Origin: Chloroflexia bacterium
GTDB taxonomy: Bacteria > Chloroflexota > Chloroflexia > Thermobaculales > Thermobaculaceae
Assembly (NCBI GenBank): GCA_013695265.1
Contig: JACDAU010000195.1
Coordinates: forward strand, 1-31,312
Length of the DNA stretch: 31,312 nt
Direction: 5' to 3'
Shown in pieces: positions 9,289-13,683 of this stretch; position 1 is the first letter of the stretch; each line of letters starts with the position of its first letter. The notes beneath the pieces were generated by a model, which saw only the letters and a list, made by a program, of their open reading frames with translations, was not told the origin of the DNA and searched no databases. The position numbers and the translations under genes are program-made.

Positions 9289-9765
9289 GTGGAACGAACA
9301 GGCGCGCCCGCCCCCCGAAGCACCATCGCGCATGATTCGCCCCTCTGCCAGGGCGGATGGTGTTTTGCCGCGCTCTGCATGCTTGCCTTCATTGTGGGCG
9401 TTGCCGCTCCACTCGCCTTGATCTCTTGGCGTCTCGGTGCGCATGCGTCGCCCGCCCAGATCGTGACCCATACGCGTGCGTTGCAGCAGGGCCGTACGCA
9501 CCATCACGACAGCGCCGGTCCCATAAGTGGTCACGATGGCGTCACAACTCAGGGCGCTGGCTTGCACCCACTCCATGTGCTGAAGGTGGTCGAGGCGGGC
9601 GCTGGTCCGGGTGAAACTATGTTGGACGTGGGGGCAGTCGCGATGGCCTCTCAGACTCAGGATCGTGCAGCAACCGGACGCTTTGATTGGAACCTGCCGA
9701 CTTTGCTTATCGATGCACAGGCCCTCCCGCAGCCGGCGCGAAGACCACCTATCCTCTGCCTTTGA
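9289..9765 (+). CDS. Hypothetical His-rich single-TM protein ending PQPARRPPILCL; possible leader of the copper-linked cluster
   Basis: Hydrophobic segment WCFAALCMLAFIVGVAAPLALISW, His cluster (THHHD, GHD, HPLH), Pro-rich C-terminus, promoter directly upstream. Confidence 0.6.
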   Translation: MERTGAPAPRSTIAHDSPLCQGGWCFAALCMLAFIVGVAAPLALISWRLGAHASPAQIVTHTRALQQGRTHHHDSAGPISGHDGVTTQGAGLHPLHVLKVVEAGAGPGETMLDVGAVAMASQTQDRAATGRFDWNLPTLLIDAQALPQPARRPPILCL

Positions 9766-9825
9766 GTGATCACATGATCGTACCGGCGCGCCACCTCGGT
9801 ACGCCACGATGAAAGGAGCAGAGTT

Positions 9826-10191
9826 TTGAGCAGACAGATAACGTTTGCGGTGCTCGCCTTGCTGGTGCTTGGCGGATTGTTCGTAACACTGCGGCCAAAT
9901 GGTTCAAATGCTGGACCGCAAGACGTGCGTTTCAACGTGTCTATAAACGGAGACGCCATGGAGCCGAACGAATTCACCGTCCGGGATGGTGACACTGTCA
10001 CCTTCCAGATCAAGGCCGACCGAGAGCTCGACCTGCACTTTCACGGGTACGACGAAGCTGTCGCCGTCAAGGACAGCGAGACCGCTACACTCTCGTTCGA
10101 AGCAAACAAGACCGGTAGCTGGCCGATCGAGGAACACGAGACCGAGGCGGAACTGGGTAAGCTCGTCGTGCAGCCCCGTGAAGGAAATTGA
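9826..10191 (+). CDS. Membrane-anchored cupredoxin-fold protein lacking the type-1 Cys
   Basis: N-terminal anchor, PNEFTVRDGDTVTF, LHFHGYD, SFEANKTGSWPIEEH; AAAGGAG RBS. Confidence 0.8.
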   Translation: MSRQITFAVLALLVLGGLFVTLRPNGSNAGPQDVRFNVSINGDAMEPNEFTVRDGDTVTFQIKADRELDLHFHGYDEAVAVKDSETATLSFEANKTGSWPIEEHETEAELGKLVVQPREGN

Positions 10192-11774
10192 AGCGGCGCA
10201 ATCCCGTGCGCTGGCTCGCCGCGCCTGGTGTACTTCTCCTTGCAGTGGCGTCAGTGGGACGGGCGGAAGCGCACGGCTTCGGCCAGCGCTACACGTTGCC
10301 CGTCCCGCTCTGGCTGTACCTGTACGGGTCCGCGGCGGTGGTCGTGCTCTCCTTTGTTCTCGTTGGGTTCTTCGTTGGGGAGGAGAAAGTTCCGGGCGGC
10401 TACCGCCGCTATAATCTCCTCGGTGTGCACTGGCTGCGAACCCTCCTACCTCACCCTGCCCTCCTCCTCACGCTCCGTCTACTCTCCGTCGGACTGTTCG
10501 CACTCGTTGTGATTAGCGGAACACTGGGCGATCAGGCGCCCAGTCTGAACTTCGCGCCCACGTTCGTGTGGGTCATCTGGTGGGTGGGACTGGGTGCCGT
10601 CACTGCGCTGGTGGGGAATCTTTGGGTGCTTCTCAACCCCTGGAAGACGCTCTTTGACTGGGCAGACGCCGCCGCCAGGCGAATGGCTCTTGGCGGGCTT
10701 GAACTGCACGCACCATATCCCCGTTGGCTCGGAGTATGGCCTGCGCTGCTGCTCTACTTCGGCTTTGTATGGCTGGAGATCATATTTGCTGGTGCGCCGC
10801 GTCCTTCAAACATTGCCCTGTTTGCCCTCGCGTATTCGGTGATCACATGGACCGGGATGGTGTATTTTGGCCGCGACGTGTGGTTGCGCCAGGGTGAGGC
10901 GTTCAGCGTCTTCTTCGGTATCCTCGCCCGTTTCGCTCCCACCGAGGTGCGGGTTACCGATTCCGGCGCCTGCACAGCAGGTGACGCACCGTGCCACATC
11001 GAGCCAGACGGCTGCGTGAACTGCTACGAGTGCTTTGAGTTCGCCGAGCCAGCAAAGCGCGAGCTCAACCTGCGGCCCTGGGCAGTTGGGTTGGTGCGCG
11101 GCGAGGCCATCACTGCGGACCGTCTCGCCTTTGTCCTCTTTATGCTCGCCAGTGTGACCGTGGACGGCTTGCAGGTGACCTCCGCGTGGCTCCACGTGGA
11201 GGCGCTCGCGTTCCCCGCAACGCAGGCGGTGGGCCGCTGGGGATACCCAATGCTCCAAACGCTTGGCCTGCTGGTGGTGCCGGTGCTCTTCGGCGTTATC
11301 TACTATGGTTTTGCCGAACTCATGCGGCGCGCGAGTGGTCGCGAGCAGCGCGTTCACACCATCGCAGCAGGCTTCATCTATTCCTTGGTACCCATCGCGC
11401 TCGCATATCAGATCGCGCATTATTACACGCTGCTTCTCATTCAAGGGCAAAGTATCATTCCACTGCTCTCGGATCCCTTTGGCTGGGGTTGGAACCTGTT
11501 CGGCACGGCGGGGTACTCGGTGAACGCTGCGGTCCTCGGTGCCGCGTTTGTGTGGTACTCCCAGGTCGCGCTCATCGTTGCTGGCCACGTGATTGCCGTG
11601 TACCTGGCGCACGTGCTCGCGCTACGGCTCCTGCGAAATCCTCGGCGGGCGCTCCATAGCCAATACCCCTTGTTGGCGCTGATGGTGCTGTATACCGTCT
11701 CGAGTCTCTGGATTTTGTCGCAACCGATCATTGAGGAGACGAATCGGGCGGGACTGCTGCTATATTTGAGGTAG
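10188..11774 (+). CDS. Polytopic membrane protein with signal peptide/N-terminal His and Cys cluster (divergent 4Fe-4S-binding membrane protein-like)
   Basis: Signal peptide ending AEA|HGFG, many TM segments, C-x6-C-x6-C-x2-C-x2-C loop; start overlaps the cupredoxin stop. Confidence 0.8.
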   Translation: MKRRNPVRWLAAPGVLLLAVASVGRAEAHGFGQRYTLPVPLWLYLYGSAAVVVLSFVLVGFFVGEEKVPGGYRRYNLLGVHWLRTLLPHPALLLTLRLLSVGLFALVVISGTLGDQAPSLNFAPTFVWVIWWVGLGAVTALVGNLWVLLNPWKTLFDWADAAARRMALGGLELHAPYPRWLGVWPALLLYFGFVWLEIIFAGAPRPSNIALFALAYSVITWTGMVYFGRDVWLRQGEAFSVFFGILARFAPTEVRVTDSGACTAGDAPCHIEPDGCVNCYECFEFAEPAKRELNLRPWAVGLVRGEAITADRLAFVLFMLASVTVDGLQVTSAWLHVEALAFPATQAVGRWGYPMLQTLGLLVVPVLFGVIYYGFAELMRRASGREQRVHTIAAGFIYSLVPIALAYQIAHYYTLLLIQGQSIIPLLSDPFGWGWNLFGTAGYSVNAAVLGAAFVWYSQVALIVAGHVIAVYLAHVLALRLLRNPRRALHSQYPLLALMVLYTVSSLWILSQPIIEETNRAGLLLYLR

Positions 11775-12630: not shown

Positions 12631-13194
12631 TTGGGGCGTTTATGCATCACATTGCTCCTGCTGTGTCTGCTGGTTGCCGCGTGCGGCAATGGACAAAGCA
12701 CCCCGACAACACAGTTCGCGATAGCTCCGTCCCCCACAGCGCAGGACGGAGCGGGCACCGGGTTGGGTCACGCTGTGTCCGACGAAGGCGGCGGCCACGT
12801 TGCCGAAGGCACGGACGTGACGTACAAGAACGACCCTCCCGCGTCGGGACCGCACTACAACAGAGTGCCCGACTATAATGTGTACACCGAAGTCGTCCCA
12901 CCGGAGTACTGGGTGCATAACCTTGAGCACGGCGCGATCGTGGTGCTGTACAGATGCCCACGGGGCCTGCAGGAGTGCACCGAGGTGACGGCACAGCTAC
13001 AGCAGCTATACCGCGCGGCTCCGCCCAGTAAGTTCGGGAACGTGAAGATGGTCGCGGCGCAGTACCCGACGCTCCGCACGCCTCTGGCGATGCTCGCGTG
13101 GAACCGCGTAGATGAGCTCCAAACGGTCGATCAGGAGCGTATGCTGACTTTATACCGCACGTACGTGGACAAGGGGCCCGAGGACGTACCGTAG
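12631..13194 (+). CDS. DUF3105-like lipoprotein
   Basis: LVAAC lipobox, GHV...Y..DPPASGPHY, VHNLEHGAIVVLY; GGAGG RBS, starts directly after the SCO stop. Confidence 0.8.
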   Translation: MGRLCITLLLLCLLVAACGNGQSTPTTQFAIAPSPTAQDGAGTGLGHAVSDEGGGHVAEGTDVTYKNDPPASGPHYNRVPDYNVYTEVVPPEYWVHNLEHGAIVVLYRCPRGLQECTEVTAQLQQLYRAAPPSKFGNVKMVAAQYPTLRTPLAMLAWNRVDELQTVDQERMLTLYRTYVDKGPEDVP

Positions 13195-13230
13195 CCGAAG
13201 GGTCTCCAATGACGGGCACGGGTGGGCTGC

Positions 13231-13683
13231 GTGACCAGAGAATATTTCGAACGCCCTGTCGCAGCGGTTGGGGTGGTGGTAGTGCGCGATGACGGCCGGG
13301 TTCTGCTCGCGCGACGGGCGAATCCGCCCCTGGATAGTCTATGGTCCGTACCTGGCGGGGTGCTCGAACTCGGCGAAACAATCGCTGAGTGTGCCCGCCG
13401 CGAGGTCCGGGAAGAATGTGGCATCGAATGCACCACAACCGAGATCTATCACGCCTTCGACAGCATTCACCGCGACCCTGCCGGCCGGGTTCGGTACCAC
13501 TACCTCATCGTTGATGTGCTCGCGCAGTGGGCTTCCGGGGACGTGTGCCCTGGCACTGATGCATTGGAAGCCCGTTGGTTCTCCCTGGACGAGGCGGCGG
13601 ACTTGGCGATGACGCCAGGCGCGGAGCGCGTAGTGCGCGCCCTGCTTCTCCGCGCACCGGCCGCAGGCACAGGCGTCAGTTGA
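13231..13683 (+). CDS. NUDIX hydrolase (ADP-ribose pyrophosphatase-like)
   Basis: Nudix box GGVLELGETIAECARREVREECG; N-terminus REYFERPVAAVG; GTG 13231 or 13222 start. Confidence 0.9.
   Translation: MTREYFERPVAAVGVVVVRDDGRVLLARRANPPLDSLWSVPGGVLELGETIAECARREVREECGIECTTTEIYHAFDSIHRDPAGRVRYHYLIVDVLAQWASGDVCPGTDALEARWFSLDEAADLAMTPGAERVVRALLLRAPAAGTGVS

What the first reader, a model, noticed from the sequence alone, without database searches (positions are those of the whole stretch)
9289..13683. Putative undescribed extracytoplasmic copper/redox module
Seen: six co-oriented genes - His-rich leader, Cys-less cupredoxin, N-terminal-His polytopic protein, SCO (CxxxC...H), His-rich DUF3105-like lipoprotein, NUDIX - with coupled junctions at 10188 and 12631. 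No cytochrome oxidase, CopA or multicopper oxidase gene is in the window. Known: SCO proteins deliver Cu or reduce thiols for cuproproteins. Inference: SCO serves a local client, making this a Cu-acquisition or Cu-dependent membrane redox system. The 226-nt gap at 11775-12000 (TATAAC near 11981) may split it into two transcripts.
Basis: partly seen in the sequence, partly recalled or inferred. Interest (0 to 1): 0.75.

Follow-up and report, generated by a model that had tools for sequence, protein, structure and literature searches.

The report
Unnamed copper-linked cupredoxin plus membrane pair
Two overlapping genes encode a cysteine-free, three-histidine cupredoxin tethered to the membrane and a ten-helix membrane protein that starts with an invariant histidine; the pair is widespread, unnamed and probably moves copper, while the SCO, DUF3105 and NUDIX genes beside it here are local additions.

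Summary
Five of the six genes are real: a cupredoxin, a 528-aa membrane protein, SCO1/SenC, DUF3105 and NUDIX. Both coupled junctions are confirmed. The "His-rich leader" ORF is doubtful.

The six genes are not a conserved unit. Only the cupredoxin and the membrane protein travel together. An HxHGYD cupredoxin lies upstream in 55 of 75 testable loci, from Chloroflexota, Actinomycetota, Proteobacteria, Nitrospinota and Thaumarchaeota. SCO follows in 4 of 80 loci. DUF3105 follows in 1 and NUDIX in 2.

The membrane protein belongs to a large family: 7,199 representatives at 50% identity. It has no Pfam or NCBIfam model, no solved-fold match and no detectable homology to CopD. Its first residue after signal-peptide removal is an invariant His.

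The variable neighbours and fusions that recur by function are copper handlers: SCO, CopC, CopD, YcnI, YtkA, PCuAC, Cu/Zn-SOD and a copper monooxygenase operon.

My best reading is a new, non-homologous counterpart of CopC/CopD (YcnJ/YcnI). It would acquire or relay copper at the membrane and here feed SCO and a cytochrome oxidase encoded elsewhere. No experiment supports this.

This scan flagged the same pair on other DNA at least five times.

The parts
9289..9765 (+). Doubtful 158-aa ORF ('His-rich leader'): one predicted TM helix, 9 His, C-terminal PQPARRPP
   Evidence: The ORF is open in the window, L001 and L002. dN/dS between L001 and L002 is 1.18, against 0.12-0.26 for cup, mem and sco. 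Nucleotide identity is 63%, little above the flanking non-coding DNA at 59-60%. It has no Pfam or NCBIfam hit. Its only database hit is a 128-aa self call.
9826..10191 (+). Membrane-anchored, Cys-free cupredoxin (121 aa) with HxHGYD (H71, H73) and H104
   Evidence: Pfam Cupredoxin_1 scores E 1.3e-4, 22.4 bits, below the 27-bit cut-off. The AF2 model has pLDDT 93, with a TM helix at 2-22 and a beta sandwich at 33-116. Foldseek matches CuA domains, B. anthracis Cupredoxin_1 (4hcf) and EfeO, E about 5e-7. H71 and H73 are invariant and H104 is conserved in at least 90% of 30 homologues. The RBS is GAAAGGAG.
10188..11774 (+). 528-aa, ten-helix membrane protein of a large unnamed family
   Evidence: It has no Pfam or NCBIfam hit. 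Homologues number more than 4,600, and 7,199 50%-identity representatives score E<=1e-3. The AF2 model has pLDDT 87. No solved fold matches: Foldseek best E 0.06, VIA-align best Z 7.3 on generic helices. Hydropathy and the positive-inside rule give N-out, C-out topology.
10272..10274 (+). Codon of His29, predicted first residue of the mature membrane protein (signal peptide ...AEA|HGFGQRYTLPVPL)
   Evidence: H29 is invariant in 36 of 36 sequences. The pattern of a hydrophobic leader, small residues at -3/-1, His and a downstream PxP occurs in at least 201-229 of 269 family members; most misses are truncated or regex misses. Cleavage itself is inferred.
10941..11072 (+). Cys-rich insert (residues 252-295; C262, C269, C276, C279, C282, including CVNCYEC), predicted cytoplasmic
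   Evidence: The alignment shows the insert is missing from proteobacterial and some SAR202 members. CxxCxxC occurs in 158 of 269 members. The cytoplasmic side is assigned by helix parity. The metal or cluster bound is unknown.
11775..12000 (.). 226-nt spacer between the membrane gene and SCO
   Evidence: No Rfam match. No promoter-like site, and none of the listed terminator-like sites lies in it. It is poorly conserved and shorter (about 139 nt) in L001 and L002. It is absent in L003, where the spacer is 2 nt.
12001..12630 (+). SCO1/SenC lipoprotein (209 aa), with CPDFC at 76-80 and H169
   Evidence: Pfam PF02630 scores E 5.8e-31. The motifs are confirmed and the lipobox LLSAC. It is the only SCO in the assembly.
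12631..13194 (+). DUF3105 lipoprotein (187 aa, 5 His), abutting the SCO stop
   Evidence: Pfam PF11303 scores E 1.9e-26. The junction and RBS are shown. It is not linked to SCO or to the pair elsewhere: 1 of 80 and 0 of 80 loci. Its neighbours in other genomes are housekeeping genes.
13222..13683 (+). Cytoplasmic NUDIX hydrolase (153 aa), probably an operon passenger
   Evidence: Pfam PF00293 scores E 1.6e-26. The Nudix box starts at residue 46. It follows SCO only in the two closest relatives, L001 and L002.

Best explanation
The functional unit is the translationally coupled pair at 9826-11774.

Proposed mechanism (inferred):
- The cupredoxin domain is held at the outer face of the membrane by an N-terminal helix. 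It binds copper, most likely Cu(II), at a three-His site (H71, H73, H104).
- It passes the copper to the amino-terminal His of the ten-helix membrane protein. That His would form a histidine-brace-like acceptor once signal peptidase has cut after Ala28.
- The metal then moves along invariant polar residues. These are the outer-loop residues N121 and S428-D429-P430, the mid-membrane residues H411, H467, M499, Y502 and T503, and the inner residue H475.
- In this lineage the cytoplasmic Cys-rich insert may receive the metal.
- The system therefore acquires copper, or relays it at the membrane, for extracytoplasmic cuproenzymes. Here the adjacent SCO lipoprotein would take copper on to a haem-copper oxidase encoded elsewhere.

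DUF3105 and NUDIX are co-transcribed neighbours, not conserved components.

Shown: gene reality, fold, conservation, gene linkage and copper-themed context.
Inferred: metal identity, signal-peptide cleavage, direction of transport and every mechanistic step.
For: - Gene coupling. The 4-nt start/stop overlap is seen here. An HxHG[Y]D cupredoxin ORF lies upstream in 55 of 75 loci with enough sequence, across at least 5 phyla. The median spacer is 13 nt, and 47 of 56 lie within 60 nt.
- Conserved residues. In the cupredoxin, H71 and H73 are invariant and H104 is conserved in at least 90%. In the membrane protein, H29, H411, H467, H475, D429, M499 and Y502 are invariant.
- Fold. The cupredoxin fold is confirmed.
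- Copper-themed variable neighbours. Among 105 co-oriented flanking ORFs there are SCO1 (3), CopC (3), CopD (2), YcnI/DUF1775 (2), YtkA (2) and cytochrome c (2). No other functional theme recurs apart from lineage-specific housekeeping genes.
- Where the cupredoxin is missing, a YtkA-like protein, a CopC-CopD-cytochrome c fusion or a BNR (sortilin-like) protein sits upstream in most such loci.
- Periplasmic C-terminal fusions are to Cu/Zn-SOD and a YtkA-like domain.
- A mycobacterial plasmid carries sigC, the cupredoxin, the membrane protein, an anti-sigma factor and a copper monooxygenase CAB operon.
- PCuAC is a neighbour in Sulfitobacter.
- In 150 Chloroflexota genomes, 33 of 34 carriers have COX1. 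Only 1 of 26 COX1-negative genomes carries it, and that copy has stop codons (Fisher p about 0.009, not corrected for phylogeny).
- The own assembly has no CopD or PCuAC.
- The functional precedent is YcnJ/YcnI of B. subtilis. [quoted passage not shown]
Against: - No experiment exists for any member.
- Metal identity rests on gene context alone.
- Haloarchaeal relatives sit beside DyP-like and P19/FetP-like genes, an iron-uptake-type context.
- Alphaproteobacterial relatives sit in nicotinate-catabolism clusters without a cupredoxin.
- SCO linkage is rare, at 4 of 80 loci.
- No classical Cu(I) motifs (MxxxM, HxxxM) occur in the membrane protein.
- Direction of transport is undetermined. The Sod_Cu and YtkA fusions and the SCO neighbour fit outward delivery equally well.
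- No model coordinates were available, so the geometry of the proposed sites was not checked.
- The COX1 association is confounded by phylogeny and by aerobic lifestyle.
Confidence: 0.5

Rival explanations
1. Outward copper delivery, acting as a metallation relay or insertase. The membrane protein takes cytoplasmic Cu(I) through the Cys-rich insert and hands it outward, through His29 and the cupredoxin, to SCO, Cu/Zn-SOD, oxidases or copper monooxygenases.
For: The Cys-rich insert is predicted to be cytoplasmic. Periplasmic C-terminal fusions are to Sod_Cu and a YtkA-like domain. SCO lies immediately downstream here and in L001-L003 and L025. A copper monooxygenase operon lies downstream in Mycobacterium.
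Against: The Cys-rich insert is absent from about 40% of members, including most proteobacterial ones. There is no ATPase or obvious coupling device. The known outward routes use P1B-ATPases, of which the assembly has at least two full-length P-type ATPase hits, with metal specificity not examined. N-terminal His sites in CopC and YcnI are Cu(II) capture sites used in uptake (PMC13344008; 10.1101/2021.06.11.448128).
Confidence: 0.2
2. A membrane redox enzyme. Electrons pass from a cytoplasmic Fe-S cluster on the CxxCxxC insert, through a cofactor held by the intramembrane His residues, to an outer copper site. The result would be a cupric reductase or an oxidase, loosely like CcoG or a miniature subunit I/II pair.
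For: The CVNCYEC motif plus upstream Cys residues resembles a ferredoxin motif. Two members are named 'polyferredoxin' by JGI. An Atlas structural neighbour carries Fer4_5 in 13% of its members. The anchored cupredoxin has the helix-plus-sandwich build of ba3 oxidase subunit II. Four His residues are invariant, three of them within helices.
Against: The insert is optional. There is no Pfam Fer4_5 or other redox-domain hit at E<=0.1. The window copy has only 5 Cys. Three intramembrane His residues are too few for two haems. No quinone-site or haem-site similarity was found.
Confidence: 0.1
3. An iron (or general divalent-metal) uptake system of the EfeUOB/FetMP type. The membrane protein would replace the FTR1 permease, and the cupredoxin would play the role of the EfeO cupredoxin domain.
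For: EfeO is among the top three Foldseek matches of the cupredoxin. Haloarchaeal homologues are followed by a DyP-like protein and a P19/FetP-like 'Iron_transport' protein.
Against: Those homologues are only 27-32% identical and lack the HxHGYD partner. The membrane protein has no REXXE motif. Every recognisable neighbour of the closer subfamily is a copper protein. P19 and the Streptomyces DyP are themselves copper-linked; that point rests on my own knowledge and was not checked here.
Confidence: 0.08
4. The six genes form one dedicated machine in which DUF3105, NUDIX and the leader peptide have specific roles. For example, the leader could be a copper-sensing arrest peptide controlling the operon.
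For: All are co-oriented with tight junctions. The SCO-DUF3105 order recurs in Rubrobacter L003, and the leader-like ORF and NUDIX recur in L001 and L002. The C-terminal PQPARRPP is kept in L001.
Against: DUF3105 is absent from the two closest relatives and unlinked to SCO or the pair in 80 other genomes. NUDIX is cytoplasmic and linked only in close kin. The leader ORF shows neutral substitution (dN/dS 1.18) and has no database homologues.
Confidence: 0.07
5. A membrane-bound metallohydrolase related to the 'fenitrothion hydrolase' FedA of Burkholderia.
For: One Atlas structural-neighbour cluster (TM 0.89) is automatically named 'Fenitrothion hydrolase family protein'. B. cenocepacia BCAM2542 bears that name in an expression table (PMC3417382). 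Some distant relatives lie in catabolic clusters.
Against: The name is an automatic label. No FedA sequence or paper could be examined. The fenitrothion hydrolase shown to work in Burkholderia SFA1 is Mpd, an unrelated 292-aa protein (PMC8571283). Nothing in the close subfamily's context suggests hydrolysis.
Confidence: 0.03

Closest known systems
CopC/CopD copper-uptake systems, especially B. subtilis YcnJ (CopC-CopD-YtkA) with YcnI (PMC13344008; 10.1101/2021.06.11.448128)
   Same: Both have an extracytoplasmic beta-sandwich copper binder next to a polytopic membrane protein with intramembrane His residues. Both use an amino-terminal His as a copper ligand. Both are associated with YtkA domains, SCO and haem-copper oxidases. 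CopC, CopD, YcnI and YtkA genes are the recurring neighbours of this pair.
   Different: The membrane protein is not a CopD: it has no Pfam hit and hhalign probability is 0.2%. The N-terminal His sits on the transporter itself rather than on the soluble partner. The partner is a cupredoxin with an HxH...H site, not a CopC or YcnI fold. A Cys-rich cytoplasmic insert is present in about 60% of members.
EfeUOB and FetMP/P19 metal-uptake systems
   Same: A cupredoxin-type or Ig-type periplasmic metal binder works with a membrane permease. EfeO's cupredoxin domain is a top structural match. Haloarchaeal relatives neighbour DyP-like and P19-like genes.
   Different: There is no FTR1/EfeU similarity and no REXXE motif. 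There is no M75 domain. The context of the close subfamily is copper, not iron.
SCO-dependent CuA assembly (Sco1/SenC, with PCuAC or CtaK/YtkA)
   Same: The window's SCO has the full CxxxC...H copper site and a lipoprotein anchor. It lies directly downstream of the pair in four loci from three lineages.
   Different: No oxidase, PCuAC or TlpA gene is nearby. The upstream partners are the novel pair rather than known chaperones.
Cupredoxin domains of two-domain multicopper oxidases, NirK, nitrosocyanin and CuA subunit II
   Same: The fold and weak sequence similarity are shared (profile E 1e-5 to 1e-8; Foldseek). The family's conserved HlHGYD segment lies inside the stretch that aligns to the laccase cupredoxin domains. 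The single N-terminal helix plus sandwich matches ba3 subunit II.
   Different: There is no Cys and no Met ligand, so no type-1 or CuA site. It is a single domain with three His residues. It is encoded with a non-oxidase membrane partner.
CcoG / NapH / NosR membrane ferredoxin-type proteins (Fer4_5)
   Same: It is a polytopic membrane protein with a cytoplasmic Cys cluster and a copper-related context. Some members are auto-named 'polyferredoxin'.
   Different: There is no Fer4_5 match. It has a single partial CxxCxxC motif that is optional in the family.

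Membership tests
Cupredoxin fold (Pfam clan; PF13473 Cupredoxin_1) | Greek-key beta sandwich of the cupredoxin type | tested here: met
   AF2 model with pLDDT 93. Foldseek probability is 1.00 to CuA domains, 4hcf Cupredoxin_1 and EfeO, with TM about 0.6 and rmsd 1.5-3.8 over about 90 residues.
Cupredoxin fold (Pfam clan; PF13473 Cupredoxin_1) | Score above Pfam's gathering cut-off for PF13473 | tested here: not met
   22.4 bits against a cut-off of 27.
Type-1 (blue) or CuA copper proteins | Cys thiolate ligand(s) in the C-terminal loop (H...C...H...M) | tested here: not met
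   The protein has no Cys, and Met only at positions 1 and 45. The conserved residues are H71, H73 and H104.
CopD (PF05425) | Sequence or profile homology to the CopD membrane domain | tested here: not met
   No Pfam hit at E<=0.1. hhalign of the 36-sequence family profile against 4 CopC-CopD proteins gave probability 0.2%. The CopD alignment was small.
Histidine-brace copper proteins (CopC, LPMO, PmoB type) | His as the first residue of the mature protein, binding copper through its amine and its side chain | tested here: inconclusive
   A signal peptide with AEA|H29 and an invariant His are seen. Cleavage and copper binding cannot be shown with these tools.
Histidine-brace copper proteins (CopC, LPMO, PmoB type) | A second His completing the T-shaped site | not testable with these tools
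Candidates are the cupredoxin's H71, H73 and H104, or residues of the outer loops.
SCO1/SenC (PF02630) | Thioredoxin-like domain scoring above cut-off, with CxxxC and a distal His | tested here: met
   107.7 bits against a cut-off of 22.8. CPDFC lies at 76-80 and H169 is present.
DUF3105 (PF11303) | Score above the gathering cut-off | tested here: met
   93.1 bits against a cut-off of 25.
NUDIX hydrolases (PF00293) | Nudix box GX5EX7REUXEEXGU | tested here: met
   93.3 bits. The box GVLELGETIAECARREVREECGI starts at residue 46.
FTR1/EfeU iron permeases | REXXE motifs in transmembrane helices | tested here: not met
   No REXXE in the 528-aa protein and no Pfam FTR1 hit.
NapH/CcoG-type membrane ferredoxins (PF12801 Fer4_5) | Fer4_5 domain or complete CxxCxxCxxxCP motifs | tested here: not met
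   No Pfam match at E<=0.1. There is one CxxCxxC without the fourth-Cys-Pro signature.
RAPP/SecM-type arrest leader peptides (CutF/CruR-like) | A translated, conserved upstream ORF with an arrest motif | tested here: inconclusive
   The ORF is open in 3 genomes, and ARRPP is kept in the window and L001. Substitution between L001 and L002 is neutral (dN/dS 1.18). It has no homologues. Translation is untestable here.

The most novel reading that the evidence does not exclude
The pair defines a structurally unprecedented, very widespread class of copper translocase. The transporter itself would carry the amino-terminal His copper site and dock a dedicated three-His cupredoxin. It would be a main copper-supply route for respiratory oxidases and copper monooxygenases in aerobic Chloroflexota (including marine SAR202), Rubrobacteria, many Proteobacteria, Nitrospinota and ammonia-oxidising archaea.
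Probability: 0.4. Interest if true: 0.8.

Novelty: new variant of a known kind. Interest (0 to 1): 0.6.

Why it matters
Copper export is well understood, but how most prokaryotes acquire copper and route it to oxidases is not. CopCD/YcnJ and CcoA cover only some lineages. This assembly, 93% complete, has no detectable CopD or PCuAC.

The family is large, with about 7,200 clusters at 50% identity. It has no Pfam or NCBIfam model and no solved fold. Its neighbours are repeatedly SCO, CopC, CopD, YcnI, YtkA, Cu/Zn-SOD and copper monooxygenase genes. It is therefore a strong candidate for the missing route.

The family also occurs in groups of biogeochemical weight, namely SAR202, Nitrospinota and Thaumarchaeota.

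The hypothesis is directly testable: an N-terminal His on a transporter paired with a three-His cupredoxin. Tests include EPR or ICP-MS on the soluble domain, point mutants and copper-limited growth.

For this window specifically, the result corrects the picture. The unit of interest is two genes, not six.

Tried and rejected
- Solved-structure search for the membrane protein. Sequence search gave nothing. Foldseek's best hit was E 0.06. VIA-align against 48,161 chains gave at best Z 7.3 on generic helical bundles. No fold can be assigned.
- CopD homology was rejected: hhalign probability 0.2%.
- Fer4_5 and FTR1 membership were rejected.
- DUF3105 as a copper-module component was rejected. In 80 DUF3105 loci, SCO is nearby once and the pair never. 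Its recurrent neighbours are 6PGD, ADH, PNP and an aminotransferase.
- Rfam search of 8900-14200 at E<=1 gave no match.
- The sigma-70 promoter scan found 0 sites. Terminator-like hits were not above shuffled expectation (7 against 4.1 +/- 2.4), and none lies in the 11775-12000 gap.
- The 'fenitrothion hydrolase' lead could not be verified. No FedA sequence or descriptive paper is in the library.
- Literature searches for a described cupredoxin plus N-terminal-His membrane pair found only the CopC, YcnI and LPMO literature.
Pfam-annotated metagenome neighbourhoods could not be used. I substituted my own ORF clustering plus batch Pfam scans.
- Model coordinates are not exposed, so distances between His residues were not measured. 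No multimer prediction is available.
- The absence of COX1, COX2 and MCO from the assembly was considered as evidence for a non-oxidase SCO client. I set it aside because relatives have COX1.

Full report
**What is in the sequence**

ORF listing and Pfam/NCBIfam scans confirm five co-oriented genes between 9826 and 13683.
- A 121-aa cupredoxin-like protein, with a weak Cupredoxin_1 hit of 22.4 bits, below the cut-off.
- A 528-aa membrane protein with no family hit at all.
- SCO1/SenC (E 5.8e-31).
- DUF3105 (E 1.9e-26).
- NUDIX (E 1.6e-26).

Upstream on the minus strand lies endonuclease V. Downstream on the minus strand lie a glutaredoxin-like gene and MoaA.

Both "coupled junctions" are real.
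- The cupredoxin stop and the membrane-protein TTG start overlap by 4 nt at 10188-10191.
- The DUF3105 TTG at 12631 follows the SCO stop directly, with GGAGGA 7 nt upstream.

Further sequence features:
- SCO keeps CPDFC (76-80) and H169, and has a lipobox.
- DUF3105 is also a lipoprotein.
- NUDIX has an intact Nudix box and no signal peptide.

**The leader ORF**

The 158-aa ORF 9289-9765 is kept open in the same frame in the two closest relatives, L001 and L002. A loosely similar ORF lies upstream in Rubrobacter L003.

Between L001 and L002 its dN/dS is 1.18, while the cupredoxin, membrane and SCO genes give 0.26, 0.21 and 0.12. Its nucleotide identity to L001 is 63%, barely above the flanking non-coding DNA at 59-60%.

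Other frames are also open over this GC-rich stretch. A search of 5.8 billion proteins returned only a 128-aa self call.

I treat it as unproven. It could be a fast-evolving small membrane protein, a regulatory upstream ORF or simply a long 5' region.

**What is conserved elsewhere**

A scan of one genome per species returned 541 confirmed relatives of the membrane protein. I examined the best 80 loci. They come from Chloroflexota (Thermobaculum-like, Dehalococcoidia, SAR202), Rubrobacteraceae, Acidimicrobiia, Alpha-, Beta- and Gammaproteobacteria, Nitrospinota, Rokubacteria and a Thaumarchaeote.

Linkage to the window's genes, from tblastn with the window's proteins, ORF clustering and a motif count:
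- A co-oriented HxHG[Y]D cupredoxin ORF lies upstream in 55 of the 75 loci with enough upstream sequence.
- The median spacer is 13 nt, and 47 of 56 lie within 60 nt of the membrane gene's start.
- SCO follows in 4 loci: L001, L002, L003 and L025.
- DUF3105 follows in one locus (L003).
- NUDIX follows in two loci (L001, L002).

The reverse test used 80 DUF3105 loci from other genomes. It found SCO nearby once and the pair never. DUF3105's recurrent neighbours are housekeeping enzymes.

So the conserved unit is the two-gene pair. The rest is a lineage-specific operon arrangement.

In L003, SCO starts 2 nt after the membrane gene. The 226-nt spacer in the window is therefore not a general feature. 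That spacer is unconserved and holds no Rfam family and no consensus promoter.

**The cupredoxin**

AlphaFold2 on a 30-sequence alignment gives pLDDT 93. The model has an N-terminal transmembrane helix (2-22) and a nine-strand sandwich. Other lineages have a lipoprotein signal instead.

Foldseek's best matches are CuA domains, B. anthracis Cupredoxin_1 with bound copper, and the cupredoxin domain of EfeO, at E about 5e-7.

A profile search of PDB sequences hits NirK, two-domain laccases, nitrosocyanin and CuA, at E 1e-5 to 1e-8. The conserved HlHGYD segment of the family lies inside the stretch that aligns to the laccases.

The protein has no Cys and exactly three His. H71 and H73 are invariant, and H104 is conserved in at least 90%.

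By their positions in the model's secondary structure, H71/H73 and H104 sit in the loops that carry the ligands in classical cupredoxins.

**The membrane protein**

More than 4,600 relatives were found by word-seeded search, none with a Pfam domain except C-terminal Sod_Cu fusions. An exhaustive profile search gave 7,199 representatives at 50% identity with E<=1e-3, of which 1,815 score E<=1e-30.

The AF2 model has pLDDT 87. It has no convincing counterpart among solved structures.

Hydropathy, the model's helices and the positive-inside rule give ten transmembrane helices with both ends outside.

A signal peptide ends AEA|H29 and is followed by HGFGQRYTLPVPL. The His is invariant in 36 diverse sequences. 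The signal-peptide-then-His pattern holds in the great majority of 269 family members. A SAR202 subgroup lacks the signal peptide and also lacks the cupredoxin.

Other invariant positions are N121, H411, S428-D429-P430, H467, H475, M499, Y502 and T503. They are spread from the outer loops to mid-membrane to the inner leaflet.

The Cys-rich segment (residues 252-295, including CVNCYEC) lies on the cytoplasmic side by parity. It is missing from proteobacterial and other members. CxxCxxC is present in 158 of 269 members.

**Why copper**

Beyond the cupredoxin, the neighbours vary between lineages. The only functional theme that recurs is copper trafficking.
- Among 105 co-oriented flanking ORFs from 63 non-redundant loci, Pfam finds SCO1 (3), CopC (3), CopD (2), YcnI/DUF1775 (2), YtkA (2) and cytochrome c (2).
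- A YtkA-like, C-terminally anchored protein occurs in 25 loci. It directly precedes the membrane gene where the cupredoxin is missing.
- CopC-CopD-cytochrome c fusions precede the membrane gene in three loci.
- Periplasmic C-terminal fusions are Cu/Zn-SOD, a weak YtkA-like domain and TPR repeats.
- In annotated plasmids, Mycobacterium dioxanotrophicus carries sigC, a cupredoxin (HVHVHGYDE), the membrane protein, an anti-sigma factor and a copper membrane monooxygenase CAB operon.
- A Sulfitobacter relative lies beside PCuAC.

In a sample of 150 Chloroflexota genomes the family occurs in 34. Of these, 33 have COX1. Only 1 of 26 COX1-negative genomes has it, and that copy carries stop codons. 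The odds ratio is 9 and p about 0.009, but kin are not independent. One unpublished genome, G050, is among the 124 COX1-positive genomes counted, and no specific claim rests on it.

The window's own assembly shows no CopD or PCuAC, and only a borderline CopC-like hit.

**Caveats on context**

More distant relatives (27-35% identity) live in other settings.
- Haloarchaeal copies sit beside DyP-like and P19/FetP-like genes, an iron-uptake-type context.
- Alphaproteobacterial copies sit in nicotinate-catabolism or Liv-transporter clusters.
- One copy lies beside a tannase.

The three alphaproteobacterial copies whose N-termini were read still begin with a signal peptide followed by His. The N-terminal His therefore looks like the hallmark of the wider family, and the cupredoxin marks one large branch.

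An automatic Atlas label, "fenitrothion hydrolase family", could not be traced to evidence.

**The oxidase question**

The whole assembly lacks COX1, COX2 and multicopper oxidase hits. It is 93% complete in 563 contigs. All eight good-quality relatives, including one of the same genus, have COX1.

The absence is probably a gap. SCO most likely serves an oxidase encoded elsewhere rather than a "local client".

**Mechanism proposed**

Copper is captured at the three-His cupredoxin site on the outer face. It is handed to the amino-terminal His of the membrane protein, and moved along the conserved Asp/His/Met/Tyr positions.

The closest functional precedent is B. subtilis YcnJ/YcnI. There, a Cu(II)-binding CopC domain, a site in the transmembrane CopD domain and a YtkA domain support oxidase function under copper limitation (PMC13344008). 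The family here is not homologous to CopD.

I give 0.5 to copper acquisition or relay with import as the default direction. I give 0.2 to outward delivery, 0.1 to a redox enzyme, 0.08 to iron and small weights to the rest.

**Relation to earlier scan notes**

A word search of this scan's notes shows the same cupredoxin plus ten-helix pair was flagged and followed up on other genomes at least five times, with the same tentative reading. Those are unchecked AI notes.

Here I independently re-derived the linkage, the invariant His, the optional Cys insert, the lack of a solved fold and the copper-themed neighbourhood.

New in this report:
- the dissection of the six-gene claim;
- the DUF3105 reverse test;
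- the dN/dS test of the leader ORF;
- the COX1 co-occurrence count;
- the failed CopD homology test;
- the mycobacterial sigC/CuMMO and haloarchaeal DyP/P19 contexts.

**Verdict**

The novelty lies in the two-gene core, an unnamed non-homologous analogue of CopC/CopD. It does not lie in a six-gene module.

Noticed in passing
L085:3490-11563 (Mycobacterium dioxanotrophicus plasmid NZ_CP020812): The gene order is sigC, a 353-aa His-rich protein, a lipoprotein cupredoxin (HVHVHGYDE), a membrane-protein homologue, a zf-HC2 anti-sigma factor, then copper membrane monooxygenase subunits C, A and B. The pair may be under an ECF sigma and supply a CuMMO.
   Followed up: partly
L086:5947-8599; L173:4947-8781; L089:4599-9825 (haloarchaeal plasmids): Distant homologues of the membrane protein are followed by a DyP-like DUF7405 protein and a P19/FetP-like 'Iron_transport' plus DUF7350 protein. 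This layout is like EfeUOB or FetMP, with the unnamed membrane protein in the permease position.
   Followed up: partly
L087:4934-7143; L090:4707-7076; L091:4000-6101: Alphaproteobacterial relatives lack the cupredoxin but keep a signal peptide followed by His. They sit in nicotinate-catabolism, Liv ABC or tannase clusters, and one lies beside PCuAC. This may be a functionally different branch.
   Followed up: no
whole assembly G000 (window = C178): No COX1, COX2, multicopper oxidase, CopD or PCuAC was detected in the 2.9-Mb, 563-contig assembly (93% complete, 5.5% contamination). Relatives have COX1, so the respiratory oxidase contigs are probably missing.
   Followed up: partly
window 13754-14068 (-): A glutaredoxin-family gene (Pfam E 6.7e-8) converges on the end of the NUDIX gene. 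Whether this thiol-redox protein relates to SCO was not examined.
   Followed up: no
L092-L171 (DUF3105 loci), e.g. L111:2331-2843: A co-oriented ORF of about 170 aa with no Pfam hit recurs upstream of DUF3105 in 19 of 80 genomes. It may be DUF3105's real partner.
   Followed up: no
P0068, P0132, P0122, P0158, P0142: The membrane family has C-terminal (periplasmic) fusions to Cu/Zn superoxide dismutase, TPR repeats and a weak YtkA-like domain. Xanthobacteraceae copies (L062, L063, L066, L076) carry a C-terminal extension of about 370 aa with no Pfam hit.
   Followed up: partly
window 10941-11072: The window's copy of the Cys-rich insert has 5 Cys, whereas the closest relative L001 has 6. The second Cys of CxxC is replaced, giving ACTAGDAPC against VCADCDTSC.
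   Followed up: no
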